Source: a virus
Taxonomy: Duplodnaviria; Caudoviricetes
Virus record (IMG/VR): IMGVR_UViG_2934543808_000001
Span: 1 to 64,000 of that record
DNA length: 64,000 nucleotides
Reading direction: 5' to 3' (one strand)
Shown: positions 14,359-53,695 of the stretch, one piece after another
Layout of the letters: each line of letters starts with the position of its first letter
How positions within the stretch are numbered: position 1 is the first letter of the stretch
Position numbers and translations under genes: made by a program
Notes under the pieces: generated by a model
Told to the model about the DNA's origin: nothing
The model's input: the letters and a program-made list of their open reading frames with translations, nothing else
Database searches by the model: none

Positions 14359-14398
14359 CCCGGTCGCACGAGCGAGCGCCGGGCCTTCAACGCTCCGA
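14359..14398 (+). ncRNA. Conserved leader element, copy 1 (ACGAGCGA-loop hairpin plus AACGCTCCG)
   Basis: CCCGGtCGC-ACGAGCGA-GCGCCGGG ccttc AACGCTCCG, then RBS and ATG. Confidence 0.75.
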
Positions 14399-17231: not shown

Positions 17232-17274
17232 GACTGCGGCGCACGAGCGAGCGCCCGCGGTCTCAACGCTCCGA
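17232..17274 (+). ncRNA. Conserved leader element, copy 2 (upstream of traB)
   Basis: GACTGCGGCGC-ACGAGCGA-GCGcCCGCGGTC tc AACGCTCCGA. Confidence 0.75.
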
Positions 17275-38128: not shown

Positions 38129-38229
38129 GGGGGCTCCGTTCAGGGGCGTTGCGTGGCGCTGTGCGTTGAGGGCGGGAGGGTGCCGGGCGGGAGCGGCTTA
38201 GGTCGCGCGCTCCCGCCCGGGAGGGGCCG

Positions 38230-39336
38230 TCAGGCGTCGCCGCGAGCGATGGCCTGGAGGTCGGCGAGGCTCAGTTCCGGCAGCGGGCCGTTGGCGGTCG
38301 CGCGCTGGGCGAACTCGAACGCCTCGCGCTCCCGCTCCGGCGTCGGCTCGTACTCCTCGCGCAGCGCTTCGATCGCGGGCGCCTCTTCGGTGAGGAACTG
38401 GAACCAGGCGGCGTGCGGGCCCTCGGTCTCCCAGCGCTTGCGGGCCAGGTGCAGGGCGTGCCCGGCGCTCACGGCGTCGGTGAAGCCGTACCGGGACAGT
38501 CCGGCCCCGTCGAGGCGGCGTTCCACGACGTCCCAGTCGTGCCCGGCGCGGAGCTGGGCGGTGCGCTTCACGGAGACGACGGGCATGTCGGCCCAGCGCT
38601 CCCCGGTGAACGGGGACTTCGTGGCGAAGAGGACCTGCCACCCGCCCGGGTCCTTCTCCAGCACGACGGGCGGCGTGCGGTGGGACTCCTGGCGCAGCAG
38701 GTCACGCGCTTCGGTGACCAGCTCATCCCAGCGGGACAGGCTGAGCTTCCCGGCGGTGGCGAGCCGGTCGAGGTGCGCCCACACCTTGTTGAAGCCCTCC
38801 GGGGTGGCCCACTCGTTGGGGTCGGTCTCCCAGTCGTGCTTGAGGTAGGCGCCCGGCTCCGCGCCGATGTGGTCCCAGATGTCGGCGGGGGAGAAGCGGG
38901 GGCCGCCCTCCGCGATGGTGTCCAGGGCGTTGCGCTGGTAGGCGTCCACGACCGCGAGGGAGGCCGGGTGCAGCGCGGCGAAGATCCGGGCGGCGTCCGC
39001 GTACTGCAAGGTGCGCTCCGCCGGGGACAGCTCCTTGCGGGCGGGGGACTTCTCCGGGGCGGGCGCGGGGGCGGGGCCCTGTGCCGGCTGGCGGGCCTCG
39101 GCGCGCCGCTTCAGCTCGGCGGCGACGCGCTTGCCGACGGTGGTGAGGATGCACCAGTTGAAGCCGCCGTTGCGGTTCTTCACCTCGCGGATGAGCTTCC
39201 GGCGGTGCAGGGCGTTCACGGTGCGGTCGTGGACGGTGTACGGCACGCGCCCGTCCTCGGCGGCGGCGGTGGCGAGGATCGCGTCTCGGGCGTTCTTGTT
39301 GAGGCCCTTGATGATCTCGTTGATGTACGCGGACAC
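38230..39336 (-). CDS. Hypothetical protein with N-terminal wHTH-like domain
   Basis: RTVNALHRRKLI...ILTTVGKRVA; first gene behind leader copy 3. Confidence 0.7.
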   Translation of the reverse strand: MSAYINEIIKGLNKNARDAILATAAAEDGRVPYTVHDRTVNALHRRKLIREVKNRNGGFNWCILTTVGKRVAAELKRRAEARQPAQGPAPAPAPEKSPARKELSPAERTLQYADAARIFAALHPASLAVVDAYQRNALDTIAEGGPRFSPADIWDHIGAEPGAYLKHDWETDPNEWATPEGFNKVWAHLDRLATAGKLSLSRWDELVTEARDLLRQESHRTPPVVLEKDPGGWQVLFATKSPFTGERWADMPVVSVKRTAQLRAGHDWDVVERRLDGAGLSRYGFTDAVSAGHALHLARKRWETEGPHAAWFQFLTEEAPAIEALREEYEPTPEREREAFEFAQRATANGPLPELSLADLQAIARGDA

Positions 39337-39358
39337 AGTTGTCCCCTTTGGGTTGAGT

Positions 39359-39399
39359 TCGGAGCGTTTGTTGTCCGGCTCGCTCGTGCCGTCCAACAA
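39359..39399 (-). ncRNA. Conserved leader element, copy 3
   Basis: TTGTTGgaCGGC-ACGAGCGA-GCCGgaCAACAA ACGCTCCGA. Confidence 0.8.
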
Positions 39400-39403
39400 G
39401 GAA

Positions 39404-39432
39404 AACTGTACACCATGTCCGCCGATGGTCAA
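39404..39432 (-). promoter_or_regulatory. Promoter TTGACC-N16-TACAGT overlapping the CGGACATGGTGTACA box
   Basis: -35/-10-like hexamers immediately upstream of the leader hairpin. Confidence 0.7.
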
Positions 39433-40157
39433 CAGGGAACAGCGGCCCCGACTTCACGCAGGTGAGCAGCAGCAGCGCCCCGCGCACCGTCCCGGGACGG
39501 CACGGTCGCACGCCACCCGCACGAGCACGCGGCCACCGACGAACCGTCGTACATCCACCCGCTCTTCACCCCGACCGGGCCACCCGCCCAGCTCCCCCAG
39601 CGGTCCGCCGCACGCGACCAGCCGCGCGGCTCCGACGTCCGGGTCACGTGCCGGGCCTCCGGCGCGCACAGCAGCCGCAGCGCCGCGTCCGCCACGGCGG
39701 CCACCCTGTGTGTGTCCCACTGCTCCCCCTCCAGCCGGGCCGACAGCTCCACCCCGGCGGCCGAGGTGACCGTCAGCCGGCCGTCGGGCCACACCCGCGC
39801 GGACGCCCCGGGCACGCTCCACCCCACCGACCCGTCCGACTGCCGGGGCACCCCGTTGGCGTGGTTCCGGGTCATCCGGGCGACCAGCCGCACCGACCCC
39901 GGGGCCGCGCCCGGGTTCCGGTGGTCGGCCGCGCCCGGGGCGTACTCGGCGAGCGCAGCCAGCCACGCCCCGGCGTACGGGTACGCGGCCGGGCGCAGCG
40001 TCACCAGGGCCGCCCGGTCCCGCCCGTTGCCCGCCAGGACGGCGGCCCGCACGAACTCATGGCCGGGCGCGCCGCCGTACTTCCTCAGCCGCACCGGGCC
40101 GTGCGGCGTCTCGAACTCGGTCGTCTCACGGGGGGCGAGCAGCAACAGGCCGGGCAT
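39429..40157 (-). CDS. Hypothetical protein
   Basis: GGAGG RBS; C-terminal CSCGW...H motif. Confidence 0.6.
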   Translation of the reverse strand: MPGLLLLAPRETTEFETPHGPVRLRKYGGAPGHEFVRAAVLAGNGRDRAALVTLRPAAYPYAGAWLAALAEYAPGAADHRNPGAAPGSVRLVARMTRNHANGVPRQSDGSVGWSVPGASARVWPDGRLTVTSAAGVELSARLEGEQWDTHRVAAVADAALRLLCAPEARHVTRTSEPRGWSRAADRWGSWAGGPVGVKSGWMYDGSSVAACSCGWRATVPSRDGARGAAAAHLREVGAAVPC

Positions 40158-40200
40158 GACGGTGTCCTCCAGGGCGACAGGGGTGAGCAGGGGGCGGGGG

Positions 40201-40842
40201 TCAGCAGGGCTGAGGGTGCACGCGCGCACGGGCCCGCTCCAGGACGGCGGCGCGCTGCTCCTCGGGTATGGGCAGGTAGTGAGCGGCGTAGTCGTACGGG
40301 CCGTCCCCCGGGGCCCGGAGCCGGTGAACAACGAGCGCTCCGCCCGGGTACGCGGCCGTCGGCTCGCTGATCTCGAACCGGACGCGGGTGCGGCCCATGC
40401 GGCGGACCCACACGTACGTCGTCCCGTCGTGCTCAGGCACGGCGTAGCGGGCCGGGCCGATGCTCAGCCGGTAGCGGGTGCACGCGGTTGGCACGGCCGG
40501 GTGGTCGTGCTCGCCCTTCCAGTGCCCGCACAGGGCACAGCACGGCGTGCGGGCCGGGCGCTCGCACGGCACGGCACGGAACACAGGGCCGAGGCGCCCG
40601 GGGACCATCCCGCCGATCTGCGGCCACGTGAACGTCACGGCGTCCGTGTCCGGCTCCAGGGCGGCGGCGCCCCCGCAGTGCAGCGCGGAGGCGAGCAGCG
40701 AGCGCACCAGGGCGCCGGAGACCGGGACGGCGGTGGCCGGGCGGTCGGCGTTGCTCAGGGCGTACGCGGTCCGGAAGGCGTCGAGCGGGCGGGCGATGGC
40801 GTACGGGATGGTGGGCAGTGCGACGGCAACGGCGGCGGGCAC
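40201..40842 (-). CDS. Zn-finger-like hypothetical protein (paralog of 46378-46863)
   Basis: SGALVRSLLASALHCGG and CALCGHWKGEH...ACTRY. Confidence 0.65.
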   Translation of the reverse strand: MPAAVAVALPTIPYAIARPLDAFRTAYALSNADRPATAVPVSGALVRSLLASALHCGGAAALEPDTDAVTFTWPQIGGMVPGRLGPVFRAVPCERPARTPCCALCGHWKGEHDHPAVPTACTRYRLSIGPARYAVPEHDGTTYVWVRRMGRTRVRFEISEPTAAYPGGALVVHRLRAPGDGPYDYAAHYLPIPEEQRAAVLERARARVHPQPC

Positions 40843-40904
40843 GGTGGTCTCCGTTCGGGGTTGGGCGCGGGGCGCGGCGGGCGCGCCCCGGGCCGGCTGA
40901 GGGG

Positions 40905-41414
40905 TCAGGGTTCTTCGCGGCGCAGCGTGACGCGGTGGGCTTCCTCGCGGCCCTGGTCGTACAGCTCGATCAGGCCGTCCGGGAAGTGCGTGGTGGTGGA
41001 CAGCCGGTACTCGGCGGCGCCGAGGGCGTACGCGGCCTGTCCGGCGGTGTGCGGCGCGTCGTCGGCACCCCAGACGGCCCACGGCCACATACCGCCGAGG
41101 AGGTACCGGCCGTGCGCGTCCGGCACCACGATGACCATGCGGCCCAACGCGTCGTAGTCGTCGGTCCACTGGAGCGTCAGGGTGCCGTCGGCGGCGAACG
41201 CGTAGCTCATGCACAGGTCGTCGCGGGCGACGTCGGCGGCGACCTGGGCGACGGTCTCCCTGGTGAACAGGTGCGGGGTGTCGTCGAACCACAGGGACGT
41301 GATGGGCAGTCCGACGTACGGGCCGAGTCCGGTCTCCGCGATGGTGAAGAGCTGGATGCTCAGGCGCGTTCCGTCCTCGTACGTGGCGTGCGGCATGGGC
41401 GGGATGCTGGTCAT
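40905..41414 (-). CDS. Hypothetical protein
   Basis: AAGGA RBS. Confidence 0.65.
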   Translation of the reverse strand: MTSIPPMPHATYEDGTRLSIQLFTIAETGLGPYVGLPITSLWFDDTPHLFTRETVAQVAADVARDDLCMSYAFAADGTLTLQWTDDYDALGRMVIVVPDAHGRYLLGGMWPWAVWGADDAPHTAGQAAYALGAAEYRLSTTTHFPDGLIELYDQGREEAHRVTLRREEP

Positions 41415-41510
41415 GACGTGTCGGTTCCTTCCGGATGGCGGGGAGGGTGCCAGAGGGCGGGGGCTTGCGGCCCGGGGCGCGGCGGTCACGCCCCGGGCCG
41501 GCTGCGGGAC

Positions 41511-42041
41511 TCAGCGGCGGCTCATGACGCCACGGGACGCGCGGGGCACACGGGCCACGGGCGCGGCGGCGGGGCGGGGCGCCGGTTCGGCCGGGGCGGC
41601 GCGCGCGTGCTCCGGCTCCGGCTCCTGCTGCGCGTCCCGCTCCACGGGCGGGGCGTAGCGGGTCATGATGCGGGCGATGGCGGCGGCGGCGTTCGCGTCC
41701 TCGGAGAACAGATCCCGCTCCCAGTACTCGAACGGCAGACCCCGCTTCTTCTCGTACTCGCCGAGGTACCCGAGGTCTCCCCACTCGGCGCCGAGCGGGA
41801 AGCCGGACAGGCACGTCCAGCCGTAGCCGTTCAGCGTCTCCGGGTCGATCTCGGTGACGACGATGTGGCCCCACGGGGAGTGGAAGACGATGCACGGCGC
41901 CTTGTCGGGCGCGGGGCGGGGCGTACGGGGCGCCAGGGCCCGCAGCACGCGCGCGCCCGGGTAGAAGTTGTGGCCGCGCAGCTTGCGCTGCGACTCGAAC
42001 ATCGGCATGTCGGACAGGGGGTGAAAGCGGGGGATGCGCAC
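41511..42041 (-). CDS. DUF2958-like protein
   Basis: FHSPWG...TEIDPET..GYGW...AEWG...ERDLF pattern. Confidence 0.6.
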   Translation of the reverse strand: MRIPRFHPLSDMPMFESQRKLRGHNFYPGARVLRALAPRTPRPAPDKAPCIVFHSPWGHIVVTEIDPETLNGYGWTCLSGFPLGAEWGDLGYLGEYEKKRGLPFEYWERDLFSEDANAAAAIARIMTRYAPPVERDAQQEPEPEHARAAPAEPAPRPAAAPVARVPRASRGVMSRR

Positions 42042-42099
42042 GGACGTTCCGTTCTGGGGTCGGCGGCCCGGGGCGGTCGTGCCCCGGGCCGGCTGAGGG

Positions 42100-42483
42100 T
42101 CAGCGGCGGGGCGGGATGGCGGTGAAGCCCCGGTTGGCGGCGGCTTCCTCGGCGGTCGTGCGGTCGCGGTTGCTGGTGCCGATGAGCCGGTGACCCGCGT
42201 CGGTGATCAGGTGCGAGTCCAGTCCCCAAGGGCGGTCGAGCACGACCAGGACGTCACCGTTGTCGTCGGCCCGCGCGAACCCGGGCTCGGAGTTCACGGA
42301 CTCGGCGGTGATGCCGAGCTGTCGGGCCAGGTCGGCGCGGGCGGCGGCCAGGGTGGAGCCCCGGGCGACGAACCGGCCCAGCTCCAGGCGGTAGCCGTCG
42401 CCACGCTTGAGCGGGCGGCGCACGGTGACGCCCGGCAGGGGGACGGAGACGGTTTCGACGGTGGCGGGGGCGTATCCGGTCAC
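42100..42483 (-). CDS. Hypothetical protein
   Basis: GAAAGG RBS. Confidence 0.65.
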   Translation of the reverse strand: MTGYAPATVETVSVPLPGVTVRRPLKRGDGYRLELGRFVARGSTLAAARADLARQLGITAESVNSEPGFARADDNGDVLVVLDRPWGLDSHLITDAGHRLIGTSNRDRTTAEEAAANRGFTAIPPRR

Positions 42484-42567
42484 GGCGGTGGGCGCCTTTC
42501 TGGCGAGAGGGAAGCGGGGTTGGGGCCCGGGGCGCGGGAGGGCGCGCCCCGGGCCGGCTGGGGGCCG

Positions 42568-43311
42568 TCAGGCGGCGGCGGGCACGTCGTGCGAGAGGCC
42601 GAACGTCATCTGCGCCGTGCGCTGGTCCCCATCCCAGTGGACGAACGCCATCGGTGCGCCGCTGTACCAGTGGAGCCACAGCTCCAGCACCACGCCCGCG
42701 GCGCCGTATCCGGACTGGACGGTGTCGCCGACGGCGAAGCCGTACACGCCGCGCTCGCGCTCGATCTCGTCCGGCGCGGCCAGCCGCATCACGGGGTCGG
42801 TGACGACCGGCCAGCGTCCGGCCCACGCGATCGTCAGGGCGTCGTCTTCGACGGCGGTGACGGTGCCGCGCTGGATCACGGCGCGGGGTTCGGTGCCGTG
42901 CCGGTGGTCGGAGTCGTCGGGCAGGTGGATGAAGCTGCGGACCACCCGGTCCCCGGGGCGGTACTCGGCCGTGTGGCGCCCGTACACCCCGGCGGGAACG
43001 TGCTCGCGGGGGATGACCAGCGCGACGCCGTTCGAGGGCCACACGAGGGATTCGCCTTCCAGGGCGGTGTACCCGCCGGTGCTCACCGGGAGCGCGGGGA
43101 AGGCCGCGCAGCTCTGCATGGCCCAGCGCAGCCGCGCGGGGTCGGGCGCGCCGTCGTACGCGCCGAGCACCAGGTCACCGGGGCGCACGTCCAGGTTGGG
43201 GACGATGCGCAGTTGGCTCATGTCGGTGCCGGTGGGCGGCATCTCGTAGACGCCGTTGTCGGGCCGGTCCGCGACGATCAGCGGGTAGAACGTGACGTCG
43301 GTGACGCACAT
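42568..43311 (-). CDS. Hypothetical protein (SH3-like beta segments)
   Basis: YRPGDRV and FAVGDTV motifs; behind leader copy 4. Confidence 0.65.
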   Translation of the reverse strand: MCVTDVTFYPLIVADRPDNGVYEMPPTGTDMSQLRIVPNLDVRPGDLVLGAYDGAPDPARLRWAMQSCAAFPALPVSTGGYTALEGESLVWPSNGVALVIPREHVPAGVYGRHTAEYRPGDRVVRSFIHLPDDSDHRHGTEPRAVIQRGTVTAVEDDALTIAWAGRWPVVTDPVMRLAAPDEIERERGVYGFAVGDTVQSGYGAAGVVLELWLHWYSGAPMAFVHWDGDQRTAQMTFGLSHDVPAAA

Positions 43312-43332
43312 GGGTGTCCCCTTCGGGTTGGT

Positions 43333-43397
43333 TCGGAGCGTTTGTTGGGGCGGCTCGCTCGTGCCGTCCAACAAGGAAAACTGTACACCATGTCCGC
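43333..43397 (-). ncRNA. Conserved leader element, copy 4, with upstream box (43379-43397)
   Basis: TTGTTGGaCGGC-ACGAGCGA-GCCGccCCAACAA ACGCTCCGA. Confidence 0.8.
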
Positions 43398-43443
43398 CGG
43401 TGTTCGGTAGGGACCCCGGGCGAGTCCCTACCGGGACGCAGCG

Positions 43444-43965
43444 TCAGGAGCGGGCGCGGACGGCGGCAACGTCGCCCGGGTGTCCCGCAGCCGGCCCGCA
43501 GATACGGTTGCCCATCGTGCGGCAGTCCCACCCCGACTCGTCCTCGTCCACGACCCCGTCACGGTTGTCGTCGCCGAGCGCGTCAGCCTGACCGTCCACC
43601 CACCCGTCCACCCACGCGACCGTGCCCGGGTCGTCGCCGTCGGCCCGGACGTTCGGGTACGTGGGCGTGCGCCCGTCGCCGAGATCGGCCACGCCCGCCG
43701 TCCACCCGGCGTTGTAGGTGGCCACGATGTCCACGGCCGCGCCCTGAGCCGGCCGTGGGGCGTCCGGGTCCCTGCCCGTGCAGGAGGCGAACGGGCCCGG
43801 GTCGCCGCGCCACTCGACGCCGACGGAGCACCCGGGCGTGCCGACGGTCGCCCCAGCGTTCGCGCCGTTGTAGAAGGTGGTCGCCGACGCGGCCACGAGG
43901 AGCAGGCCGGTCGCGACGGCGGCGGCCACGGCGGCGCGCGCCCGGCGGGTGAGAGAGCGGGTCAT
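43444..43965 (-). CDS. Secreted protein with an EF-hand-like DDNRDGVVDEDE loop
   Basis: Signal peptide (TRR, hydrophobic stretch, ASA); DxDxDG-type motif. Confidence 0.65.
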   Translation of the reverse strand: MTRSLTRRARAAVAAAVATGLLLVAASATTFYNGANAGATVGTPGCSVGVEWRGDPGPFASCTGRDPDAPRPAQGAAVDIVATYNAGWTAGVADLGDGRTPTYPNVRADGDDPGTVAWVDGWVDGQADALGDDNRDGVVDEDESGWDCRTMGNRICGPAAGHPGDVAAVRARS

Positions 43966-44034
43966 GACGGGGTTCTCCGATCGTGGGAAGGGCGGGGCGC
44001 GGCGGGGGTGCCGCGCCCCGGGGAGCAGCAGGGG

Positions 44035-44718
44035 CTACGCGGGGACGGCGGCGGCCGTGCGGCGGGTCAGCATCTCGGCGGCCCGCTCGCGCGCCGTGGG
44101 CAGGTCCGGCGCGGCGGGGGACAGCACCTCGTACGTGTGGGTGCGGCGGCGGTCGCCGTGCCGCGTCCAGCCGTTGACCGTGCTCCAGGCGTGACCGCGC
44201 GGGTTCCGGCAGGGGTGCGACTCCTGCCGACTCGGGTCGGTGGCCCGGGGCGCGCACACCGTGCAGTCCCACCCCAGCGCGTGAGCGTTCCCCCCGCCGT
44301 ACGTGCCGTCCGGGTTGATCACGGCCGCGATGTAGACGCGCCCGATCTCCACGGGGGCGTTCTCCGGGAGCGGCAGGCCCATAGCGCGCGCGGCGTCCAG
44401 CTCGGCGAGCGCCCGGCGGTACTCGGCGTGCGCCGCCTTCTCCCACCCCCACAAGCGCGCGTCCTCCATCACGGCCCGCGCCTCCCGGTACCGGTCCAGC
44501 GCCACGACGGGCGCCGTGACGTAGGCCAGCAGACCGGCGGGGGTGATGCACCAGCGCTCATCCGGGTCCAACACCAAGTCGCGCGGGGTGATGACGCTCC
44601 CGCACGGGCAGTGAAAGCGACCGTCCGCCCCAACGGCGAAGTGGTTCGTGCAGCACTCGGCGCAGACGATGACGGTCACGAGTTCGGGCAGTTCGGGGGC
44701 GCGGTCGATCGCGGGCAT
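44035..44718 (-). CDS. Cys-rich hypothetical protein
   Basis: CAEC, CPCG and CTVC; GGAGA RBS. Confidence 0.65.
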   Translation of the reverse strand: MPAIDRAPELPELVTVIVCAECCTNHFAVGADGRFHCPCGSVITPRDLVLDPDERWCITPAGLLAYVTAPVVALDRYREARAVMEDARLWGWEKAAHAEYRRALAELDAARAMGLPLPENAPVEIGRVYIAAVINPDGTYGGGNAHALGWDCTVCAPRATDPSRQESHPCRNPRGHAWSTVNGWTRHGDRRRTHTYEVLSPAAPDLPTARERAAEMLTRRTAAAVPA

Positions 44719-44822
44719 GGCTGATCTCCAGTCGGGGCGTAGCGGGGTGAGCGTGGGAGGGCCGGGCGGCCGGTGAGGGGGGAGTGCCGACCGCCCGGCC
44801 GGCTGAGGGGCGCAGCGGTGAG

Positions 44823-45152
44823 CTACGCGGCGGGGGCGTACTCGGCGGTGCGCTTGTAGGTGTTCAGCGCGATCTCCAGCGCCGGGTCACCCGGCTGGTA
44901 CTGGAAGACGTCCCGGAGTCGGCCGTTCACGCGGCGCTTGGTGGTCTGCGGGTCGGTGCCGCCGTGGGCCGTGCGGTACGCCTTCGCGGCGTGCTTGCCG
45001 AACGGGGAGGCGTAGCGCTTCACGAACTCCGGCTCGTAGCCCCGGGAGCGCAGGAAGGGCTTCACGGTGTGCGGCCGGTTCACGCGGCGGCGGTTGCGGA
45101 GTCGGGCGGTGAGTACGCGGCGGTGGGCGCGGCGGGTGGCGGCAGCAGACAC
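44823..45152 (-). CDS. 109-aa basic protein with N-terminal arginine-rich motif (candidate N-like RNA-binding regulator)
   Basis: MSAAATRRAHRRVLTARLRNRRR; AAAGGGG RBS; first gene of the leftward array. Confidence 0.75.
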   Translation of the reverse strand: MSAAATRRAHRRVLTARLRNRRRVNRPHTVKPFLRSRGYEPEFVKRYASPFGKHAAKAYRTAHGGTDPQTTKRRVNGRLRDVFQYQPGDPALEIALNTYKRTAEYAPAA

Positions 45153-45169
45153 AGAGGTCCCCTTTGATC

Positions 45170-45209
45170 CGGAGCGTTCGGCGTGACGGTCGCTCGTCCG
45201 TCACTGCCG
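45170..45209 (-). ncRNA. Conserved leader element, copy 5 (stem sequence replaced)
   Basis: CGGCaGTGACGG-ACGAGCGA-CCGTCACGCCG AACGCTCCG. Confidence 0.82.
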
Positions 45210-45358
45210 TTCGGTGCAAGCACCACTCTACATGACCACAGCTCGCATGTGTACACCCTGTCCGCCAAGAGTTGAGCGAGCCCGTTCCAGCTCACTCCCT
45301 ATAGAGGGGTTGAGAAGTGGGGGGTTGCGCATCGCCGGACATGGTGTACAGTTCCTCT
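45210..45358. promoter_or_regulatory. Divergent promoter region with two outward-facing CGGACAnGGTGTACA boxes (45250-45265 minus, 45336-45353 plus)
   Basis: Strand-switch point; TTGCGC-N16-TACAGT rightward and TAGAGT leftward. Confidence 0.8.
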
Positions 45359-45401
45359 TGTTGGTCGGCACGAGCGAGCCGCACCGACACCAACGCTCCG
45401 A
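45359..45401 (+). ncRNA. Conserved leader element, copy 6
   Basis: TGTTGGTCGGC-ACGAGCGA-GCCGcACCGACA cc AACGCTCCGA. Confidence 0.82.
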
Positions 45402-45423
45402 ACCCAACCCGAAGGGGACACCC

Positions 45424-46161
45424 ATGTCCGTCACCCTGGCCAAGCCCAGCGACACCGCGACCGAGAGCGAAGAGGTCGACTACATCGCCCCGGCCCGCGT
45501 GTTCATCGCGGTCGCCCAGCTCCCCGACGGCCGCGTGAGCGGCGTGGACCTCTACGCCAACGCCCCCGCCGCCGACGAAGTCCTTCCCGCCACCGTGTGG
45601 ACCGTCGCGGTCCCCGACGCGGACGACGTGTACGGCTCCGCCGCCGCCAAGGTTCTCGACCTGGCGCTCACCAGCGGCTACCGCGACACCGACGGGCACG
45701 GCTGGGCCGAGGGAGAGCGCACGGCCCGCGCCTTCCACGGCGACCACACCGACGAGCGGGCGTTCCTCCGCACCGTCGAAGCGCTGCTCATCCGCGCGGG
45801 CTACCTCGACGCGCACGCCGGCCTCGTGCACTGCCGGGGGTACGGGCTGCGCGTCGGTGACGACGACGTGGTCATGAAGTGGGCCGAAGGCTGGAAGTGG
45901 GCCGCGCTCGACTCCACCGACATGGACGGCTGGTGCTTGCAGCCCGGAGTACTCGCCCCCGCCGACGCCTCCCCCCAGCGCGTCGCCAACGCCATCATCC
46001 TCAACCTCGCCTGCCTCGGTTACCTCCCCTGGACGGACATGCGACTGCGCGACCGCGCCCGCGTCTACGTCCGCACCTTCGGATGGCGCGCCCGGCTCCA
46101 GCGCATCACCTACCGGGCCACCCGCTTCCGCCGCACCGTCCGGGCCCGCATCACCCGCTGA
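45424..46161 (+). CDS. Hypothetical protein
   Basis: GAAGGGG RBS; first gene of the rightward array. Confidence 0.7.
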   Translation: MSVTLAKPSDTATESEEVDYIAPARVFIAVAQLPDGRVSGVDLYANAPAADEVLPATVWTVAVPDADDVYGSAAAKVLDLALTSGYRDTDGHGWAEGERTARAFHGDHTDERAFLRTVEALLIRAGYLDAHAGLVHCRGYGLRVGDDDVVMKWAEGWKWAALDSTDMDGWCLQPGVLAPADASPQRVANAIILNLACLGYLPWTDMRLRDRARVYVRTFGWRARLQRITYRATRFRRTVRARITR

Positions 46162-46377
46162 ACCCCGGCTGGGGCGCACCGCACCCCCCGGTGCGCCCCA
46201 GCCGGCCCCGGGACCCCCGCGCGCGCGTGGGACGGTCTCACGGGTTCCACGAACGCCCCTTTGCGCTGGTCACAGCGTTGCCCCCTCGTCGCACGGTTGA
46301 CCCCGTTCGGGTCTCGTCCGGGGAGTCTCGGGCCCCTTCCTCTCCTTCTCCCGCCCTACCCCTTGCCTGGAGTTCTC

Positions 46378-46863
46378 GTGTTCTTCGCTGACCCCACGCC
46401 GTCCACCATCGGTGAGTTCCGTCTGTGCGACCCCCGTGAGGCGACGTTCGCCGCGTACTCGGTCGACGCGTCCCCGGTCTCGGCTGTCGTCCCCGGTATG
46501 GAGTCCCGCCCCATGTCCGGCGGTCTGCTGCGCGCCCAGTTGGTCAACGCCCGGCAGTGCGGCGGCTCCATCGTCCTGGACGACCTGAGCGGCACCGTGG
46601 CGTTCACCTACGCGTCCGGCACCTTCCACCGCATGGTGCAGGTGGCCACGCCGCTCACCTCGTCCATCCCCCTGTGCGGGACGTGCGACCAGTGGGAGAG
46701 CGAGCACCGCAACCCGAACGCGGCGGCGTGCGACCGGTTCGACGTCGATCCCCGTCCGGGCACGGCCGCGAACCCCCTGTGTCTCCGTGAGGAGTGCGGC
46801 GGCTACCCGCGTACGCACCACGGGCGCCCCTTCACGGTGGCGTGCCACTCCTTCGAGGGCTGA
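46378..46863 (+). CDS. Zn-finger-like hypothetical protein (paralog of 40201-40842)
   Basis: SGGLLRAQLVNARQCGG and CGTCDQWESEH...ACDRF. Confidence 0.65.
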   Translation: MFFADPTPSTIGEFRLCDPREATFAAYSVDASPVSAVVPGMESRPMSGGLLRAQLVNARQCGGSIVLDDLSGTVAFTYASGTFHRMVQVATPLTSSIPLCGTCDQWESEHRNPNAAACDRFDVDPRPGTAANPLCLREECGGYPRTHHGRPFTVACHSFEG

Positions 46864-46968
46864 CGGCCGGTCGTCCGGCGTGTCCGCATCGAGCCGCGGC
46901 GCCTTGGTCGCGGCCCGGTGCGGGGATGCACGAGCGCCCCGCCCGCCTATGACCCTTCGGAGGTCTGC

Positions 46969-47109
46969 ATGTCCAGCACCACCCCTGAGAACCGCGAGCG
47001 CCCCGTGACCCGGCGGGAGTTCCGCGCCGCCGTGCTCACGTTCGCCGCCGCCATGGTCGCGTGCGCCCTCGCGATCTTCTGCCTCCTGGCCCTGGAGATC
47101 ACGGGCTGA
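46969..47109 (+). CDS. Small single-TM protein, 46 aa
   Basis: GGAGG RBS; hydrophobic C-terminus. Confidence 0.6.
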   Translation: MSSTTPENRERPVTRREFRAAVLTFAAAMVACALAIFCLLALEITG

Positions 47110-47284
47110 TCCGTCCGCCGGCCGGGGCGCGCACTCCCGCCGCCCCGGCCCGTTCCTCCCGCTTCCGCTGCTCCCCGCTCTCGTCCGCGCCGCCGCCCGT
47201 CTCGGCCGTGTGCAGGACGCGCCGTAAGCGAGTCCGCCGGGCCATCATCCGCGCCCGTGAACCACTGAACCTCTGGAGTTCCCC

Positions 47285-47905
47285 GTGACCGTGACCAGTC
47301 TCCCCGTGTCCGCGCTTCCGTACATCCCGTCCGCGTTCTCCCCGGGCGACCGCCTCGACTTCGCGGGCGACTTCGCCACCCGTGACGACAAGGGCCGCTG
47401 GATATGCGAGCGGCCGGAGTGCGCCCACGGCCTCACGGACTCGGACGTGCGGCGCCTGTACACCGACACGGAGACCCTGACCCGGTTCGGCCTGCCGCTG
47501 CTCGCCCCGGGGGAGGTCTCGGACGACGAGCCGCTTCCCGGCCGTGCGGTCGCCCCGGGAGAAGCGCCGTTCGAGCGGGACCGGCCGTACCTGGTGTGCG
47601 GCAACCTGCTGGGCTACTTCCACCCCATCACCGAGATGGACCCGGGCCCGTGGGGGACCGCCCAGGGTGCGGCGACGTTCAACGGCCCCAAGCGCCCGGG
47701 GGAGCACGAGATGACGCTTACGGCCACGGGCGTGGTGTGGGTCCGTACGCCGTCGCGGTTCGGTGGCCACCTGGTCACGTACGCGTTCATCCCGGCCGAG
47801 CTGCCGTCCGGTGACGACCTGGTGGACCTGATGTCGGTCGCCGTACTCCGCGCCGCCTTCCCCGCCGACGCCTACGCGCCGCGCGTTCCCCGCCACGCGT
47901 TCTGA
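47285..47905 (+). CDS. Hypothetical protein
   Basis: GGAG RBS. Confidence 0.65.
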   Translation: MTVTSLPVSALPYIPSAFSPGDRLDFAGDFATRDDKGRWICERPECAHGLTDSDVRRLYTDTETLTRFGLPLLAPGEVSDDEPLPGRAVAPGEAPFERDRPYLVCGNLLGYFHPITEMDPGPWGTAQGAATFNGPKRPGEHEMTLTATGVVWVRTPSRFGGHLVTYAFIPAELPSGDDLVDLMSVAVLRAAFPADAYAPRVPRHAF

Positions 47906-47993
47906 CCCCGTTCCCCGGCGGGGCGTACTGCCCGCGTGCGCCCCCGCCGGCCCGCTCCCCTTCCTGCCCGCTGACTCCCGGAGGACTCCCGCC

Positions 47994-48791
47994 ATGACCA
48001 CCGCCGTCGCCACCGACTACCGCACGCCCCTGATGACCTTCCGCGCCGCCGTACACCGTGTCCGGCAGTCTCCGGAGCCGTCGACCCTCGCGGAGCTGTC
48101 CCGCGCCGCCCTGGCGCTCCCTGGGGGCCCGCGCGGCACGGTCACGGACGACGAGAAGTACGTGGGCCTGCTCCGGACCCTGGAGTTCGCCGAGGAGTCG
48201 CAGGTCTTCCCCCGCATCGACCACATGGTGACCACCGTGGGAGACCTCGCCCGGATGACGCCGAGCTGGTTCCGCCCGCACGAGCCGGAGGGTACGGCGG
48301 ACGTGGTCCGGCTCCTGGCCATGTGCCACGAGCGGCAGCCCGACATGGAGTCCAGCCCGTTGAGCCCGTGGACCCGCGCGGCCGAGGCGGGGACGCGACT
48401 GCTCGGAATCATGCTGCGGCGGACGGACGCGCGGCCGGCCGAGGCCCTGATGGTGCGCACCGCCGAGGAGTTCGCCGCGCGGATGCGGACCGCCGTCGCT
48501 CACGCTGCGGTCGCCACGGCCACCCACTTCGCGGAGTACGCCGCGCGGGCCTACGGCCTGTTCCCCATCGGAGGCCGCATCGCCCGGATGAACGGCGGCT
48601 ACGTCGAGTGGTCCCGGGTCTTCGGCACGCGCCGGTACACCTTCGAGCTGGTCGAAGGCGGGTGGCTCGAAGGCTTCCCCCACGGGCGCGTGACCGTCCG
48701 CCGGACCGGTTCGTACGAGGTCTTCCGCACGTTCGCGCTGACCGCCCGTACCCGGCGCAAGGACACCGACCGCTTCACCGCCTCCCTGTGA
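47994..48791 (+). CDS. Hypothetical protein (tandem paralog A)
   Basis: YGLF.IG...R.FGT...FE...EG.P.G.V.VRRT. Confidence 0.7.
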   Translation: MTTAVATDYRTPLMTFRAAVHRVRQSPEPSTLAELSRAALALPGGPRGTVTDDEKYVGLLRTLEFAEESQVFPRIDHMVTTVGDLARMTPSWFRPHEPEGTADVVRLLAMCHERQPDMESSPLSPWTRAAEAGTRLLGIMLRRTDARPAEALMVRTAEEFAARMRTAVAHAAVATATHFAEYAARAYGLFPIGGRIARMNGGYVEWSRVFGTRRYTFELVEGGWLEGFPHGRVTVRRTGSYEVFRTFALTARTRRKDTDRFTASL

Positions 48792-48877
48792 TCCGCCCGG
48801 CGGGGGCGTGCGCTCCGTGCGCCCCCGCCGGCCCCCACACCCCCTCTCCCATCCCTGAGCCCATGGAGGACTCGACC

Positions 48878-49693
48878 ATGAACACCGACGTCACCACCGC
48901 CGTACAGGGGTCCGTCACCGCCGCCATGCGGGAGCTGCTGACCGCCGGGCAAGAAGCCGTGCGCGCCGCCGAGCACCGCGGCTCCCCGGAAACCGTCGCC
49001 GGGCTGGACAAGGCGCTGTGCGCGCTGCCGCTCCTCGACATGGACGACCAGGCCCACCGCATCCTGAACCACGCGCTGACGGTCGTGACGCGGGCCGAAG
49101 ACGCCGACGAGTGGACGCTTCTGGCCGACGTGGAGCACGCCGTGTCCCGCCTGATGCACGAGCCGGACGGGGCGACGCTCGAACACCCGGCAGTGCTCGC
49201 CGTGGGCAATCTCGCGATGCGGTGCAGCACCCGTGAGAGAGAGACGGGCATGGCCGTGGGGCGGGCGTGGAGCCGGGGCTACATGGCTGGCATGGAGGCC
49301 CTGCGCATGGTGACGGGCGCCATCTATGGCGAGCGGGACGGCCGCGCCCTGGACAAGGCCGTGACCGAGTTCCTGACCGCCGTACGGCGCGCGATCCCGT
49401 ACGCGGCCCTGTACGAGACGCGCCGTGCCCTGGTGGAGTTCGCCCGCTCGTACGGACTGTTCGTCATCGGGATGCGGCAGACGCTGCCGCCCGGCCGGTG
49501 GGAGTACGCCCGCCGCATCGGCACCGCCGTCTTCCTGTTCGAGATCGTCCCCCCGCTTGTGGAAGGCCACCCGTACGGCTCGGTCGCTGTCCGGCGCACC
49601 GCCGCCGACGGCACGGCGGGCCCCGTCCGGTACTTCCCGTTCCGCTCCATCGAGGCGCACCACGCCGCGAACGAAGCCCTGTACGTCATCTGA
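48878..49693 (+). CDS. Hypothetical protein (tandem paralog B)
   Basis: YGLFVIG...RRIGT...FE...EGHPYGSVAVRRT. Confidence 0.7.
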   Translation: MNTDVTTAVQGSVTAAMRELLTAGQEAVRAAEHRGSPETVAGLDKALCALPLLDMDDQAHRILNHALTVVTRAEDADEWTLLADVEHAVSRLMHEPDGATLEHPAVLAVGNLAMRCSTRERETGMAVGRAWSRGYMAGMEALRMVTGAIYGERDGRALDKAVTEFLTAVRRAIPYAALYETRRALVEFARSYGLFVIGMRQTLPPGRWEYARRIGTAVFLFEIVPPLVEGHPYGSVAVRRTAADGTAGPVRYFPFRSIEAHHAANEALYVI

Positions 49694-49752
49694 CCGCCCG
49701 CCGGCCGGGGCGTTCCATGCCCACGCCCCGGCCCTGCCCGGAGGGAACTCCC

Positions 49753-50166
49753 GTGCTCTACCTGCCCAAGAAGATTCACGTCTGGTTCGTGCCGCGCGCG
49801 GACCGTGCCCTTCACCAACTGCTCATCGACGCCGACCAGCTCGACGGCACCACCCTGGTGAACGTCCCGCGCGGCCGTGACGGGACTGCGGAGCTGCCGC
49901 GCATCGACGTCCTGGAGCCCGTGCTCCTCGGCTCCAGCTCGGGCCAGTTGCGCCGCCCCAAGGAGTGGGCCGCGAGCACCATCCGCTTCCGCATGGCGAG
50001 CACGAGCGGCGGCGCGCTCCCGGCGCACAGGCTGCGCGAGACGACGCGCGTGCACGAGGTTCCGGCCGCCGAACTCGGCGACATGGCCGAGGTGCTGCGC
50101 CGCGCGGGCAATGAGCAGCGGGTCGTGACCGTGCCCGTGCCGCCGTGGGTCGCCTACGTCCGCTGA
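49753..50166 (+). CDS. Hypothetical protein
   Basis: GGAGGG RBS. Confidence 0.65.
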   Translation: MLYLPKKIHVWFVPRADRALHQLLIDADQLDGTTLVNVPRGRDGTAELPRIDVLEPVLLGSSSGQLRRPKEWAASTIRFRMASTSGGALPAHRLRETTRVHEVPAAELGDMAEVLRRAGNEQRVVTVPVPPWVAYVR

Positions 50167-50296
50167 GCCCCGCCGCCCCGGGGCGCTCGTTCCCCGGGGC
50201 TGGCCCGGCGCTTCCTTCCCTCGGCCGTGCCCGTCACGGCCGTGCGCAGGGCGCACCGTGCCCCCGCCGTATCCGTACTCACTGCTTGGAGACCCC

Positions 50297-50920
50297 GTGT
50301 CCACCATGACCTTGACCGCCCTGGCCGTGCAGCCGGCCGTGTTCCCCCCGCCGTCCGTCCCGGTGGTCTTCACCGACGGCGACCGCTACGAGTGGCCGAC
50401 CGGAGACATCTGGACCCGTACCCGGGGGTGGTGGGTGCCGTCCTCCGCAGGCGACCCGCGCGACGACGGCACCGGGTACTGGACGGACGCGGAGGTGCGC
50501 GCGAGCCTCGGCCGCGCCATCGAGGCGTGGGACGTGCGGAAGATGTTCGTGCCCGCCCGCCCCGCTGATCTGCCGCCCGGCCCGTTCCCGGTGATGCCCA
50601 CCAGCCGGCCCACGTCTCAGTACGTCCTCGACCACCAGGCCGACCGGCTCGTTCCCCTGCGGGACCTCGTCGCCGCGTTCGACGAGGACACCGCGTACGA
50701 CATCCCGGCCGTCCTCACCGCGCAGGAGACGGAGCGGGTGGTGGCGGAGATCATCGCCGATCACGAAGACGTGCGGATGAGCCGTGACGAAGCCGCGGGC
50801 CGCATCTACATCCGCTACCGGCGGCCCAGCGAGTTCGGCATCCTGACGGCCGCCGGTTTCCCCGACCACTACGACGTCGAGTGCCTGCACGTCTTCGTAC
50901 TCACGAACCAGGCGGCGTAG
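50297..50920 (+). CDS. Hypothetical protein
   Basis: GGAGA RBS; high-GC3 codon usage. Confidence 0.65.
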   Translation: MSTMTLTALAVQPAVFPPPSVPVVFTDGDRYEWPTGDIWTRTRGWWVPSSAGDPRDDGTGYWTDAEVRASLGRAIEAWDVRKMFVPARPADLPPGPFPVMPTSRPTSQYVLDHQADRLVPLRDLVAAFDEDTAYDIPAVLTAQETERVVAEIIADHEDVRMSRDEAAGRIYIRYRRPSEFGILTAAGFPDHYDVECLHVFVLTNQAA

Positions 50921-50922
50921 CC

Positions 50923-51216
50923 GTGTCGAACGTGAAGGAGCGCGGCCGGCTCGGGGACATCCTCATGCGGGAGTTCGGCGAGTACGTCCAGGCGCTCATC
51001 GAGGCCGGGCACGACTGGGAAGCCGTCTGGGCCACGGCCGTGTGGCCGCCGGACAGCCAACTGCGCTGGCTGCAAGGCCGGTTCCTACTCGCGCGGGAGT
51101 GCGCGGGCATGGCCAACCACCGCTTCACCGACGACGAGATCACCCAGTTCGGCCGTGAGCGCCTGGCCTACCTCGCGCTCTACCCGGACGGGCCGCCGAG
51201 CCTGATTCATGGGTGA
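50923..51216 (+). CDS. Hypothetical protein
   Basis: Coupled ORF. Confidence 0.6.
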   Translation: MSNVKERGRLGDILMREFGEYVQALIEAGHDWEAVWATAVWPPDSQLRWLQGRFLLARECAGMANHRFTDDEITQFGRERLAYLALYPDGPPSLIHG

Positions 51217-51556
51217 ACGCTCGTGGGCGCGCGCGCAGCTCCTGTTGCGCGCGGACGCCCTCCGGTACGAACTCGCCCGGCGGCTGCGCGGCGCTGTCGA
51301 AGCCGACGGGGCGGTCGAGACCCGGCACGTCCGGGCCGTTGTGACCGTCCACGCGGTGCGCGCCGGCGCGGTGCGGGTGACCGTCCGTCGCCACGACCGC
51401 GCTCGTCCGCCGGTGACCGTCGAGATGCCTGCGGACGGGATCGACGTCCGCGCCCTGGTCGCGGTCGCCCGCGTCGTCTCCCGGACACCGTGGCGGGCCC
51501 TGCTCGCCGCCGTCCGCCCCCGCTTCCCCTTCCCCCTTCGCAGAGATCAGGAGTGA
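51209..51556 (+). CDS. Hypothetical protein
   Basis: Overlapping coupled ORF. Confidence 0.55.
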   Translation: MGERSWARAQLLLRADALRYELARRLRGAVEADGAVETRHVRAVVTVHAVRAGAVRVTVRRHDRARPPVTVEMPADGIDVRALVAVARVVSRTPWRALLAAVRPRFPFPLRRDQE

Positions 51557-51561
51557 TCCTC

Positions 51562-52620: not shown

Positions 52621-52631
52621 TCCAGCAGGGG

Positions 52632-52683: not shown

Positions 52684-52747
52684 GCGGACCTGGTGTACAG
52701 TTTTCCTTGTTGGACGGCACGAGCGAGCCGGACAACAAACGCTCCGA
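52684..52747 (+). ncRNA. Conserved leader element, copy 7, with upstream box (52684-52702)
   Basis: Hairpin and AACGCTCCGA identical to copy 3. Confidence 0.82.
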
Positions 52748-53631: not shown

Positions 53632-53695
53632 CGGACGCGGTGTACACCCTCCGTTGCAGGTCGGCACGAGCGAGCCGACCCGCGCAACGCTCCGA
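53632..53695 (+). ncRNA. Conserved leader element, copy 8, with upstream box (53632-53646)
   Basis: CGGACGCGGTGTACA, then GCaGGTCGGC-ACGAGCGA-GCCGACCcGC gc AACGCTCCGA. Confidence 0.8.

What the first reader, a model, noticed from the sequence alone, without database searches (positions are those of the whole stretch)
44823..45209. Lambda-N-like arginine-rich protein as first gene of the leftward promoter: candidate actinobacterial N/nut antitermination system
Seen: a 109-aa basic protein beginning MSAAATRRAHRRVLTARLRNRRR, directly behind leader copy 5 at the divergence centre. Established: lambda N (107 aa, MDAQTRRRERR) and P22 N (AKTRRHERR) bind boxB hairpins through this kind of motif and are the first gene of pL. 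Inference: this protein binds the ACGAGCGA hairpin and drives read-through of the hairpin-rich arrays, and possibly of traB. Caveats: Arg runs are common in GC-rich DNA, and the C-half (FGK...AY...G..P...VNGR.R.V..Y) also recalls domains of actinophage antirepressor-like proteins, so it may bind DNA instead.
Basis: inference. Interest (0 to 1): 0.85.

Follow-up and report, generated by a model that had tools for sequence, protein, structure and literature searches.

The report
Arginine-rich early regulator of phage-plasmid
A small, very basic and probably short-lived protein at the control centre of a Streptomyces phage-plasmid is the best candidate to recognise a conserved RNA hairpin found in front of eleven operons, but it is not a relative of lambda N and its action is untested.

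Summary
44823-45152(-) is a real 109-aa gene (GTG start, GC3 0.91, pI 11.6) with 10 Arg in its first 28 residues. It lies directly behind its own copy of the covarying ACGAGCGA leader hairpin, at a divergent promoter centre of a 134-kb Streptomyces phage-plasmid.

The lambda-N reading is only partly supported.

For it:
- The Arg-rich helix is kept in 11 of 11 phage-plasmid relatives, and each has a leader hairpin just upstream of the gene.
- A sister lineage changes both the arm (ARTHRPRR) and the loop (CACAGCGA).
- Nearly every downstream gene is followed by a strong GC hairpin without a U tract.

Against it:
- There is no sequence similarity to N.
- Residues 30-107 are a predicted folded domain of an unannotated family. 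That family also occurs fused to Bro-N or HTH_17, and in 15 prophage-like loci without this hairpin.
- No canonical terminators were found.
- Binding and read-through could not be tested.

New here: the family ends in Ala-Ala-COOH (29 of 46 members), a ClpXP-type degron.

Odds: binds the leader RNA hairpin about 0.4 (N-like antitermination about 0.13 within that); DNA-binding regulator about 0.3.

Other notes of this scan cover the hairpins and promoter box, here and in two other genomes. None listed covers this protein.

The parts
44823..45152 (-). CDS of the 109-aa basic protein (GTG start at 45152, TAG stop at 44825-44823). Residues 1-28 form the Arg-rich helix, residues about 30-107 the conserved alpha/beta domain, and the C-terminus is YAPAA.
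   Evidence: family; AF2 model
45158..45165 (-). Ribosome-binding site AAAGGGGA, 5 nt before the GTG.
   Evidence: similar in L010 and L011
45171..45178 (-). Leader tail AACGCTCC. In the MFE fold its CUCC pairs with the GGGG of the RBS.
45180..45208 (-). The gene's own leader hairpin: stem ggca-gtgacgg / ccgtcac-gcc, loop ACGAGCGA (45197-45190).
   Evidence: covariation
45225..45230 (-). Probable -10 hexamer TAGAGT of the leftward promoter, conserved as TAGAGT/TAGTGT in L010 and L011. Inferred, not mapped.
45250..45264 (-). CGGACAGGGTGTACA box upstream of the leftward promoter, one of 7 exact copies in the window.
   Evidence: 9 matches at <=1 mismatch, 0.08 expected by chance
44760..44800 (-). 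GC-rich 14-bp hairpin directly after the stop codon, with no U tract. It is the first of the post-gene hairpins of the leftward arm.
   Evidence: intergenic fold, -40.1 kcal/mol; family D1
45336..45426 (+). Divergent rightward promoter box, leader hairpin (loop 45370-45377), tail, RBS and ATG of the opposite 245-aa gene.
43348..43369 (-). Leader hairpin copy (loop 43362-43355); candidate target site.
39373..39394 (-). Leader hairpin copy (loop 39387-39380); candidate target site.
52712..52733 (+). Leader hairpin copy (loop 52719-52726); candidate target site.
53659..53680 (+). Leader hairpin copy (loop 53666-53673, 7-bp stem); candidate target site.
17236..17257 (+). Leader hairpin copy before the TraB (FtsK/SpoIIIE) gene. 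It has the loop and tail but not the TGTACAGT promoter box.
14361..14382 (+). Leader hairpin copy (3-bp stem) with tail, without the promoter box.

Best explanation
The gene encodes an early, probably short-lived regulator of a Streptomyces phage-plasmid. It belongs to an unannotated family: a basic N-terminal helix, a folded domain of about 80 aa, and an Ala-Ala C-terminus. The most likely mechanism is as follows. The Arg-rich N-terminal helix recognises the fixed 8-nt loop (ACGAGCGA, whose last four bases GCGA fit GNRA) of the hairpin at the 5' end of its own mRNA and of about ten other operon leaders. The C-terminal domain then delivers the effect. ClpXP-type proteolysis through the C-terminal Ala-Ala keeps the signal brief. 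Shown: the gene, its conservation, the arm, the hairpins and their covariation, the co-occurrence, and the conserved Ala-Ala. Inferred: RNA binding, the direction of the effect, and proteolysis. Within this reading I split the outcome roughly 1:2 between lambda-N-like read-through of the post-gene hairpins and control of translation or mRNA stability at the leader, which could be positive or negative.
For: (1) The target is an RNA-type structure.
- Of 38 loop-plus-tail co-occurrences in the record and six related loci, 35 have 3 or more flanking pairs.
- On 33 of those 35, 4 of 5 stem pairs show changes on both sides. 87.8% of cells pair, against 24-47% with slid partners. The covariation score is 0.508 against 0.119 shuffled, reached by 0 of 500 shuffles.
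- G.U wobbles occur on the sense strand only.
- The loop is fixed while the arms vary, the opposite of a dimer's DNA operator.
- All 10 copies found in the 134-kb record point toward a downstream gene.

(2) The protein has the densest N-terminal Arg run of the element, predicted as a helix over residues 3-24 with pLDDT about 88.

(3) Synteny. In 11 of 11 records of 124-137 kb that encode a homologue, the gene lies directly behind a leader hairpin and diverges from another leader.

(4) Matched variation.
- Seven records have arms of type A(x)RRxRRR with loops ACGAGCGA or ACGAGCAA.
- Four records have MPKARTHRPRR arms with loop CACAGCGA on equally variable stems.
- The only loop change seen more than once (G7 to A, 3 copies) keeps GNRA.

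That would leave the hairpin without another obvious partner.

(6) Ala-Ala-COOH ends 29 of 46 family representatives and 22 of 25 locus-encoded homologues, against 8 of 100 ORFs of this record. A C-terminal Ala-Ala is a proven ClpXP degron in Streptomyces sigma-AntA (PMC7142297, passages read).
Against:
- The domain family is far wider than the hairpin. 15 of 15 distant loci (L007, L012-L025) lack the loop-plus-tail motif within 20 kb. Their upstream regions instead carry DNA palindromes such as TGTGGCCACA.
- In other members the arm's place is taken by Bro-N (1 of 46) or HTH_17/MerR (2 of 46), which are DNA-binding modules.
- Arm-loop covariation rests on only two lineages.
- The rows of A5 were pre-selected for 3 or more pairs next to the loop. 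This inflates the percentage paired for the inner pairs, though not the diversity of pair types.
- The hairpin could act alone, as a 5' stabiliser or an anti-SD switch. It could also be read by a host factor.
- The own-leader fold is not better than shuffles (z -1.65).
Confidence: 0.4

Rival explanations
1. It is a DNA-binding early transcription factor of Cro-like, activator or antirepressor-type. The folded domain, with the basic helix as an extra DNA-contacting arm, binds duplex DNA at the divergent promoters, for example the CGGACNNGGTGTACA box or another site. The leader hairpin would be an independent cis element.
For: - The domain occurs behind DNA-binding modules: Bro-N in P0037, and HTH_17/MerR in 2 of 46 members.
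- In distant loci the gene is the first gene behind arrays of DNA palindromes and diverges from a small gene, like cro next to cI.
- The box has a palindromic core, GTGTACAC, in some copies, and a copy lies upstream of this gene.
- Weak fold rows include winged-helix and partition DNA-binding domains at Z 2.9-3.5.
- The nearest named Atlas clusters are KilAC/ANT at 0.82-0.83, a lead only.
Against: - No HTH or other DNA-binding family was detected in the protein at E<=1.
- The fold matches are all below Z 5.
- This reading does not explain why the arm changes together with the RNA loop between the two lineages, nor why every homologue sits behind a hairpin.
- Another protein (27020-28060, with a box but no hairpin) is an equally good candidate for binding the box (note e1-6247922).
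Confidence: 0.3
2. It is a strict lambda-N analogue. The arm binds the hairpin as a boxB equivalent on nascent RNA. The protein rides with RNA polymerase, with host Nus factors, and suppresses termination at the GC hairpins after each gene, including on the way to traB. This is a sub-case of the best explanation and is listed separately because it is the first reader's claim.
For: - The gene has an Arg-rich arm and is the first gene of a leftward unit.
- Hairpins sit within the first 40 nt or so of eleven transcripts.
- Nearly every gene of both arms (35.3-54.7 kb) is followed by a perfect 10-17 bp GC stem, with intergenic folds of -27 to -64 kcal/mol, so one promoter serves 3-7 such barriers.
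- A paper whose title reports rho-independent terminators without poly-U tails in actinophage phiC31 exists (seen only as reference 24 of PMC3993855).
- A labile protein would match N's short half-life (recalled).
Against: - There is no similarity to N.
- N is disordered beyond its arm (recalled), whereas here a folded domain is predicted at mean pLDDT 84.
- The scan finds no sense-strand hairpin-plus-U-tract terminators in 36.5-54.5 kb: 4 sites found against 3.8 expected, all antisense to the genes.
- The abstract of PMC3993855 (search listing) states that mycobacterial RNA polymerase needs a U tract.
- The tail AACGCTCC follows the hairpin rather than preceding it, and it is replaced by a CA-rich tract in the sister lineage, so a boxA equivalent is not conserved.
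- Nus dependence could not be tested.
Confidence: 0.13
3. It is a protein-binding adaptor, for example an antirepressor or a small packaging or recombination accessory protein. On this reading the basic N-terminus is a non-specific tail.
For: - In P0037 the domain replaces the usual C-terminal domain of Bro-N 'Ant' proteins. Twelve PHROG anti-repressor families match only the Bro-N part.
- In 2 of 2 distant loci examined, a portal gene lies 3-6 kb downstream.
Against: - In the phage-plasmid the gene is more than 40 kb from the tail genes and not next to the integrase-like gene.
- The Arg positions are conserved across 11 relatives while the residues between them vary.
- The link to the hairpin would be left unexplained.
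Confidence: 0.12

Closest known systems
Lambdoid phage N proteins with boxB/nut sites (lambda, P22, phi21)
   Same: A small protein (109 aa against 107 aa, as the finding states) with an N-terminal Arg-rich helix-forming arm. It is the first gene of an early unit at a divergent control region. Short hairpins with a fixed loop lie in the leaders of several transcripts, and the last four loop bases fit GNRA. The protein is probably labile.
   Different: There is no detectable sequence similarity. The rest of the protein is predicted to fold. The loop is 8 nt, not a pentaloop. There are about 11 sites rather than 2. No conserved boxA equivalent was found. The downstream barriers lack U tracts. 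The host is an actinobacterium, and my two paper searches found no N-type system described there.
HK022 Nun and hairpin-binding translational repressors (T4 RegA, MS2 coat protein); recalled, not tested
   Same: Small basic proteins that read an RNA hairpin in phage leaders and act negatively, by arrest or translational block. The gene's own leader carries the site, as expected for autoregulation.
   Different: No similarity was tested or found. The sign of regulation here is unknown.
Bro-N / KilAC(ANT) 'antirepressor' proteins of phages
   Same: One family member (P0037) has Bro-N followed by this domain, in the place where KilAC usually sits. The nearest named Atlas clusters carry ANT (0.82, with ANT on 56% of members; 0.83, with ANT on 13%).
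   Different: Pfam ANT is not detected in the query at E<=1, nor in any of 46 members at E<=0.01. The Atlas scores are below the level the tool treats as evidence.
Streptomyces sigma-AntA and other ClpXP substrates with a C-terminal Ala-Ala
   Same: A conserved Ala-Ala-COOH on a regulator: 67 of 71 sigma-AntA orthologues in PMC7142297, against 29 of 46 and 22 of 25 here.
   Different: It is an unrelated protein. Degradation was not tested here. The background in this Ala-rich proteome is already 8 of 100.

Membership tests
Lambdoid N antiterminators | Sequence homology to N proteins | tested here: not met
   No Pfam, PHROG or NCBIfam family at E<=1. tblastn against 50,697 phage records found no match at 1e-3.
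Lambdoid N antiterminators | N-terminal arginine-rich motif | tested here: met
   10 Arg in residues 1-28. Conserved in 11 of 11 phage-plasmid homologues. Predicted helix over residues 3-24.
Lambdoid N antiterminators | Cognate hairpin (boxB) in the nascent RNA of the regulated units | tested here: inconclusive
   Covarying hairpins with a fixed loop exist in 10-11 leaders. Binding by this protein was not testable.
Lambdoid N antiterminators | Intrinsically disordered body with NusA- and RNAP-binding segments | tested here: not met
   AF2 predicts a folded helix-helix-beta-hairpin-helix domain with mean pLDDT 84 and no stretch below 50. The domain is shared with unrelated architectures.
Lambdoid N antiterminators | boxA and Nus-factor dependence | not testable with these tools
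   The tail AACGCTCC is 3' of the hairpin and is absent from the sister lineage. The host genome is not held, because the record is a virus record.
Lambdoid N antiterminators | Downstream terminators that are read through | tested here: inconclusive
   Strong GC hairpins follow nearly every gene, but the scan found no U-tract terminators on the sense strand. No RNA runs were available.
KilAC / ANT domain (PF03374) | Match to the family HMM | tested here: not met
   0 of 46 members match at E<=0.01, and the query does not match at E<=1. There are only Atlas leads at 0.82-0.83.
Winged-helix / Cro-like DNA-binding proteins | Recognisable HTH or wHTH fold | tested here: inconclusive
   Foldseek against PDB gave a best E of 0.23. 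VIA-align wide gave a best Z of 4.2, with winged-helix and Par rows at Z 2.9-3.5. BFVD gave a best E of 0.019.
ClpXP substrates with an ssrA-like C-terminal degron | C-terminal Ala-Ala-COOH, conserved | tested here: met
   Ends in YAPAA. 29 of 46 representatives and 22 of 25 locus homologues end in AA, against 8 of 100 ORFs of the record.
ClpXP substrates with an ssrA-like C-terminal degron | ClpXP-dependent degradation, abolished by changing AA to DD | not testable with these tools
   The only support is the sigma-AntA precedent (PMC7142297, passages read).

The most novel reading that the evidence does not exclude
An N/nut-like processive antitermination system in actinobacterial phage-plasmids. 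An Arg-rich-arm protein of a new fold family binds GNRA-containing 8-nt loops at the 5' ends of about eleven operons. It carries RNA polymerase through the U-less GC hairpins that follow almost every gene. A built-in ClpXP Ala-Ala degron sets its lifetime. Arm and loop have co-diverged into at least two specificity groups (ACGAGCGA and CACAGCGA).
Probability: 0.13. Interest if true: 0.85.

Novelty: new variant of a known kind. Interest (0 to 1): 0.6.

Why it matters
If the protein reads the leader hairpin, this would be a compact protein-RNA switch that governs the whole early gene set of a family of 125-137-kb Streptomyces phage-plasmids, elements that also carry conjugation (TraB) and lanthipeptide genes. 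It would be a first handle on how such hybrids choose between plasmid life, transfer and lysis. It would also show whether the U-less hairpins common in high-GC actinobacterial and actinophage DNA really stop polymerase and can be overridden, which is an open point between the phiC31 title and the mycobacterial in vitro work. The two natural specificity pairs (arm A with ACGAGCGA, arm B with CACAGCGA) make the idea directly testable by swaps, and could give orthogonal RNA-protein parts for Streptomyces engineering. Independently of mechanism, it defines an unannotated domain family (41 representative clusters) with a conserved Ala-Ala end.

Tried and rejected
**Family libraries**
- Pfam, PHROGs and NCBIfam gave nothing for the protein at E<=1.
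- PHROGs gave nothing for the domain in 10 distant members. The hits were Bro-N and HTH parts only, plus one E 0.035 hit of unknown function.

**Structure and fold**
- A PDB sequence profile gave nothing better than E 0.16.
- Foldseek against PDB gave no match at E<=0.001.
- VIA-align wide gave 0 chains at Z>=5.
- BFVD gave a best E of 0.019, with two 'antirepressor' rows at E 0.087 and 0.68.
- I therefore name no fold.

**RNA families**
- Rfam found no family, neither at gathering thresholds on the window nor at E<=1 on 43-46 kb.

**Expression and binding**
- No RNA holder was listed.

**Neighbourhoods and relatives**
I used fetched loci with my own GC3-based ORF calls instead.
I used the search for related loci, as the message advised.
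- Two 39-kb fragments that carry the hairpin have no homologue, but they are 29% complete, so this says nothing.

**Papers**
- PMC306685 (phiC31 terminators) is not held, so only its title was seen.
- No paper in the library held 'arginine-rich motif', 'antitermination' and 'actinophage' together.
- None of the 8 listed papers with at least 3 of 'antitermination', 'Streptomyces', 'phiC31' and 'early region' describes such a system by title or abstract.
- No supplementary files were asked for.

**Ideas dropped**
- The copy at 72395 as a trans-acting small RNA. It has the tail, an RBS and an ATG 70 nt further on.
- A small terminase or ParG-like centromere protein. There is no neighbouring terminase or ParA here, and the fold rows were weak.
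- The loop-tail pseudoknot as the general mechanism. The sister lineage has a CA-rich tail with no complementarity.
- My first motif search (GGCACGAGCGAGCC, up to 2 mismatches) was not above chance on its own (9 found against 4.3 expected). It also missed the gene's own leader, because the stem differs.

Full report
**Observation**

The minus-strand ORF 44823-45152 encodes 109 residues.
- It has the codon-position GC pattern of real genes in this 72% GC DNA: 0.67/0.58/0.91.
- An RBS, AAAGGGGA, lies 5 nt before the start.
- The protein has pI 11.6 and 10 Arg in its first 28 residues.
- Among 121 GC3-supported ORFs of the record it ties for the most Arg in the first 25 residues. Three other ORFs also reach 10 or more Arg in some 23-residue window, so the density is extreme but not unique.
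- The finding's coordinates run to 45209, and this extra stretch holds the gene's own leader: hairpin gtgacgg-ACGAGCGA-ccgtcac (45204-45183), tail AACGCTCC (45178-45171), then the RBS.
- My first motif search missed this copy because its stem differs from the others.
- A second box-plus-leader at 45336-45426 drives the opposite gene, so 'divergence centre' is correct.

**What the element is**

The window is the first 64 kb of a single 134,012-bp virus record.
- It carries a TraB-type FtsK/SpoIIIE gene, an integrase-like gene and lanthipeptide dehydratase genes.
- Beyond the window it carries a tape-measure gene and a minor-tail gene.
- It is therefore a phage-plasmid, as earlier notes said.
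- Close homologues of the protein come from Streptomyces contigs or plasmids of 124-137 kb.

**The hairpin is a real RNA-type structure**
- In the record I find 10 copies of stem-ACGAGCGA-stem followed within 11-14 nt by AACGCTCC. An eleventh copy (72395) has its tail displaced by an inserted hairpin.
- All copies face a downstream gene.
- Across the record and six related loci, 35 of 38 loop-plus-tail co-occurrences have 3 or more flanking pairs. The three without lie inside coding DNA.
- On 33 of the 35 (the other two lie outside the window), 4 of 5 stem pairs change on both sides. 87.8% of cells pair, against 24-47% when the partner is slid. The covariation score is 0.508 against 0.119 in shuffles, reached by 0 of 500.
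- The rows were chosen by a filter that required three pairs. This inflates the percentage paired but cannot create the variety of pair types seen (C-G, G-C, A-U, U.G).
- A fixed loop on variable arms, with sense-strand G.U pairs, is what an RNA hairpin read at its loop looks like. It is the reverse of a dimer's DNA operator.
- Rfam has no family for it.

**The protein family**
- No Pfam, PHROG or NCBIfam model matches.
- An exhaustive phmmer search finds 41 representative clusters at E<=0.001. The shared part is residues about 30-107.
- AlphaFold2 with 46 sequences gives mean pLDDT 84. It predicts a long N-terminal helix (3-24), then helix 30-36, helix 41-62, a beta-hairpin (69-85) and two short helices.
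- No fold search gives a convincing match: Foldseek PDB best E 0.23, VIA-align best Z 4.2, BFVD best E 0.019.
- Most members are 105-160 aa with a basic N-terminal segment of varying Arg density.
- Some members carry long C-terminal extensions. One has Bro-N in front of the domain, and two have HTH_17/MerR in front of it.
- The Atlas's nearest named clusters carry KilAC/ANT at 0.82-0.83, which the tool treats as a lead only. The ANT HMM itself is not matched.

- Eleven records of 124-137 kb encode a homologue: the window, L001-L006 and L008-L011. All eleven place it directly behind a leader hairpin and diverging from another leader.
- Seven records have the ACGAGCGA or ACGAGCAA loop with arms such as SAAATRRAHRR or SANARRTRRR.
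- Four records (L001, L004, L006, L008) have a parallel regulon. It has a related promoter (CTGTAYGGT), equally variable stems, a different fixed loop (CACAGCGA), a CA-rich tail and a different arm, MPKARTHRPRR.
- The loops share AGCGA, and GCGA fits GNRA. The only repeated loop variant (GCAA, 3 copies) still fits GNRA.
- This matched change suggests a protein-loop pair, but it is only two lineages.
- Conversely, 15 of 15 distant loci (L007, L012-L025; prophage-like, 11-88 kb contigs and one 431-kb contig) lack the motif. There the gene is the first gene behind arrays of DNA palindromes and diverges from a small gene. In the two loci I annotated, a portal gene lies 3-6 kb downstream.
- So the family as a whole is 'first gene of a repressor-controlled lytic unit'. 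Its link to this hairpin is specific to one clade.
- Scanning IMG/VR for the loop-tail pattern returned 32 stretches. Seven of them carry a flanked hairpin copy (3 or more pairs) in high-GC DNA: four from the two records already known to hold the homologue, and three from two 29%-complete fragments, which cannot be judged.

**Terminators**
- Almost every gene of both arms (35.3-54.7 kb) is followed by a perfect GC hairpin of 10-17 bp, with intergenic folds of -27 to -64 kcal/mol, and then by the next RBS.
- None has a U tract. The consensus scan finds no sense-strand terminator.
- Whether such hairpins stop an actinobacterial polymerase is disputed. A 1995 paper title reports poly-U-less terminators in phiC31 (seen only as a reference; the paper is not held). 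The abstract of PMC3993855 says mycobacterial RNAP needs a U tract.
- Read-through as a need is therefore plausible but unproven.

**A new point: the C-terminus**
- The protein ends in YAPAA.
- 29 of 46 representatives and 22 of 25 locus-encoded homologues end in Ala-Ala, down to 30-35% identity. The background is 8 of 100 ORFs of this record.
- In Streptomyces, the C-terminal Ala-Ala of sigma-AntA is required for ClpXP degradation, and Asp-Asp stabilises it (PMC7142297, passages read).
- I infer a built-in degron, which fits a transient switch protein.

**Weighing**
- The strongest facts are the RNA nature of the hairpin, the 11-of-11 synteny, the arm, and the matched lineage change. I put 0.4 on the protein recognising the leader hairpin RNA. 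About a third of that (0.13 overall) goes to N-like antitermination, and the rest to translational or stability control. The own-leader fold pairs the tail with the RBS.
- A DNA-binding early regulator gets 0.3, because of the domain's company (Bro-N, HTH_17), the palindromes in distant loci, and the palindromic core of the promoter box.
- A protein-binding adaptor gets 0.12. The remainder is unknown.
- It is not a member of the N family. Homology and the disordered body were tested and not met, although it may work like N.

**Limits**
- No binding, expression or transcript-end data could be obtained.
- Arm-loop covariation has n=2.
- pN/pS in the arm rests on 1-2 synonymous changes.

Noticed in passing
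window 35300-54700, both arms: Nearly every gene is followed by a perfect GC hairpin of 10-17 bp without a U tract, then 10-30 nt and the next RBS. Many share CAGCCGGCCCGGGGC (repeat family D1, 7 copies). Whether these are terminators, processing sites or stabilisers is open.
   Followed up: partly
window 28141-28155(-), 39407, 43382, 45250, 45336, 52685, 53632: There are seven exact copies of CGGACNNGGTGTACA (0.08 expected by chance). Six precede a leader hairpin.
   Followed up: partly
L001, L004, L006, L008 (Streptomyces contigs or plasmids of 125-134 kb): A sister lineage has a parallel leader regulon: promoter cgttcgYaCTGTAYGGT, variable stems, fixed loop CACAGCGA, and a CA-rich tail (CCACACCACACAC) in place of AACGCTCC.
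   Followed up: partly
window 45069-45149 (codons 2-28 of the gene): Synonymous divergence from L010 and L011 is much lower in the arm codons (pS 0.04-0.08) than in the domain (0.24-0.31). Non-Arg positions change freely. The counts are tiny (1-2 synonymous changes). It may reflect a nucleotide-level constraint at the 5' end of the mRNA.
   Followed up: no
G000 72366-72534 (outside the window): A leader copy has the promoter box and the ACGAGCGA hairpin, but its tail, RBS and ATG lie about 70 nt further on, after an inserted extra hairpin. It is an ordinary leader with an insertion, not a small RNA.
   Followed up: yes
L007 and L012, about 160 nt upstream of the homologue: Four to five copies of the palindrome TGTGGCCACA are packed between the homologue and a small divergent gene. 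Other distant loci have different palindromes (GCGATAGC..GCTATCGC, TAGGCCTA). They look like repressor operators.
   Followed up: no
L020 13741-16314: An 857-aa gene just upstream of the portal gene carries homing-endonuclease/LAGLIDADG domains. It is probably an intein-containing terminase large subunit.
   Followed up: no
window 10-6528(-): Lanthipeptide dehydratase genes (Lant_dehydr_N/C), one fused to a protein-isoaspartate methyltransferase domain, sit on the phage-plasmid.
   Followed up: no
window 45150-45225(-): In the minimum-energy fold of the gene's own leader, the tail's CUCC pairs with the GGGG of the RBS. This fits an anti-SD role for the tail, but the fold is no better than shuffles (z -1.65).
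   Followed up: partly
window 42568-43374(-), 50258-50920(+), 32457-32849(+) and four more in G000: Seven other GC3-supported ORFs of the record also end in Ala-Ala, including a leader-driven gene next to this one. These are possible further ClpXP-labile products.
   Followed up: no
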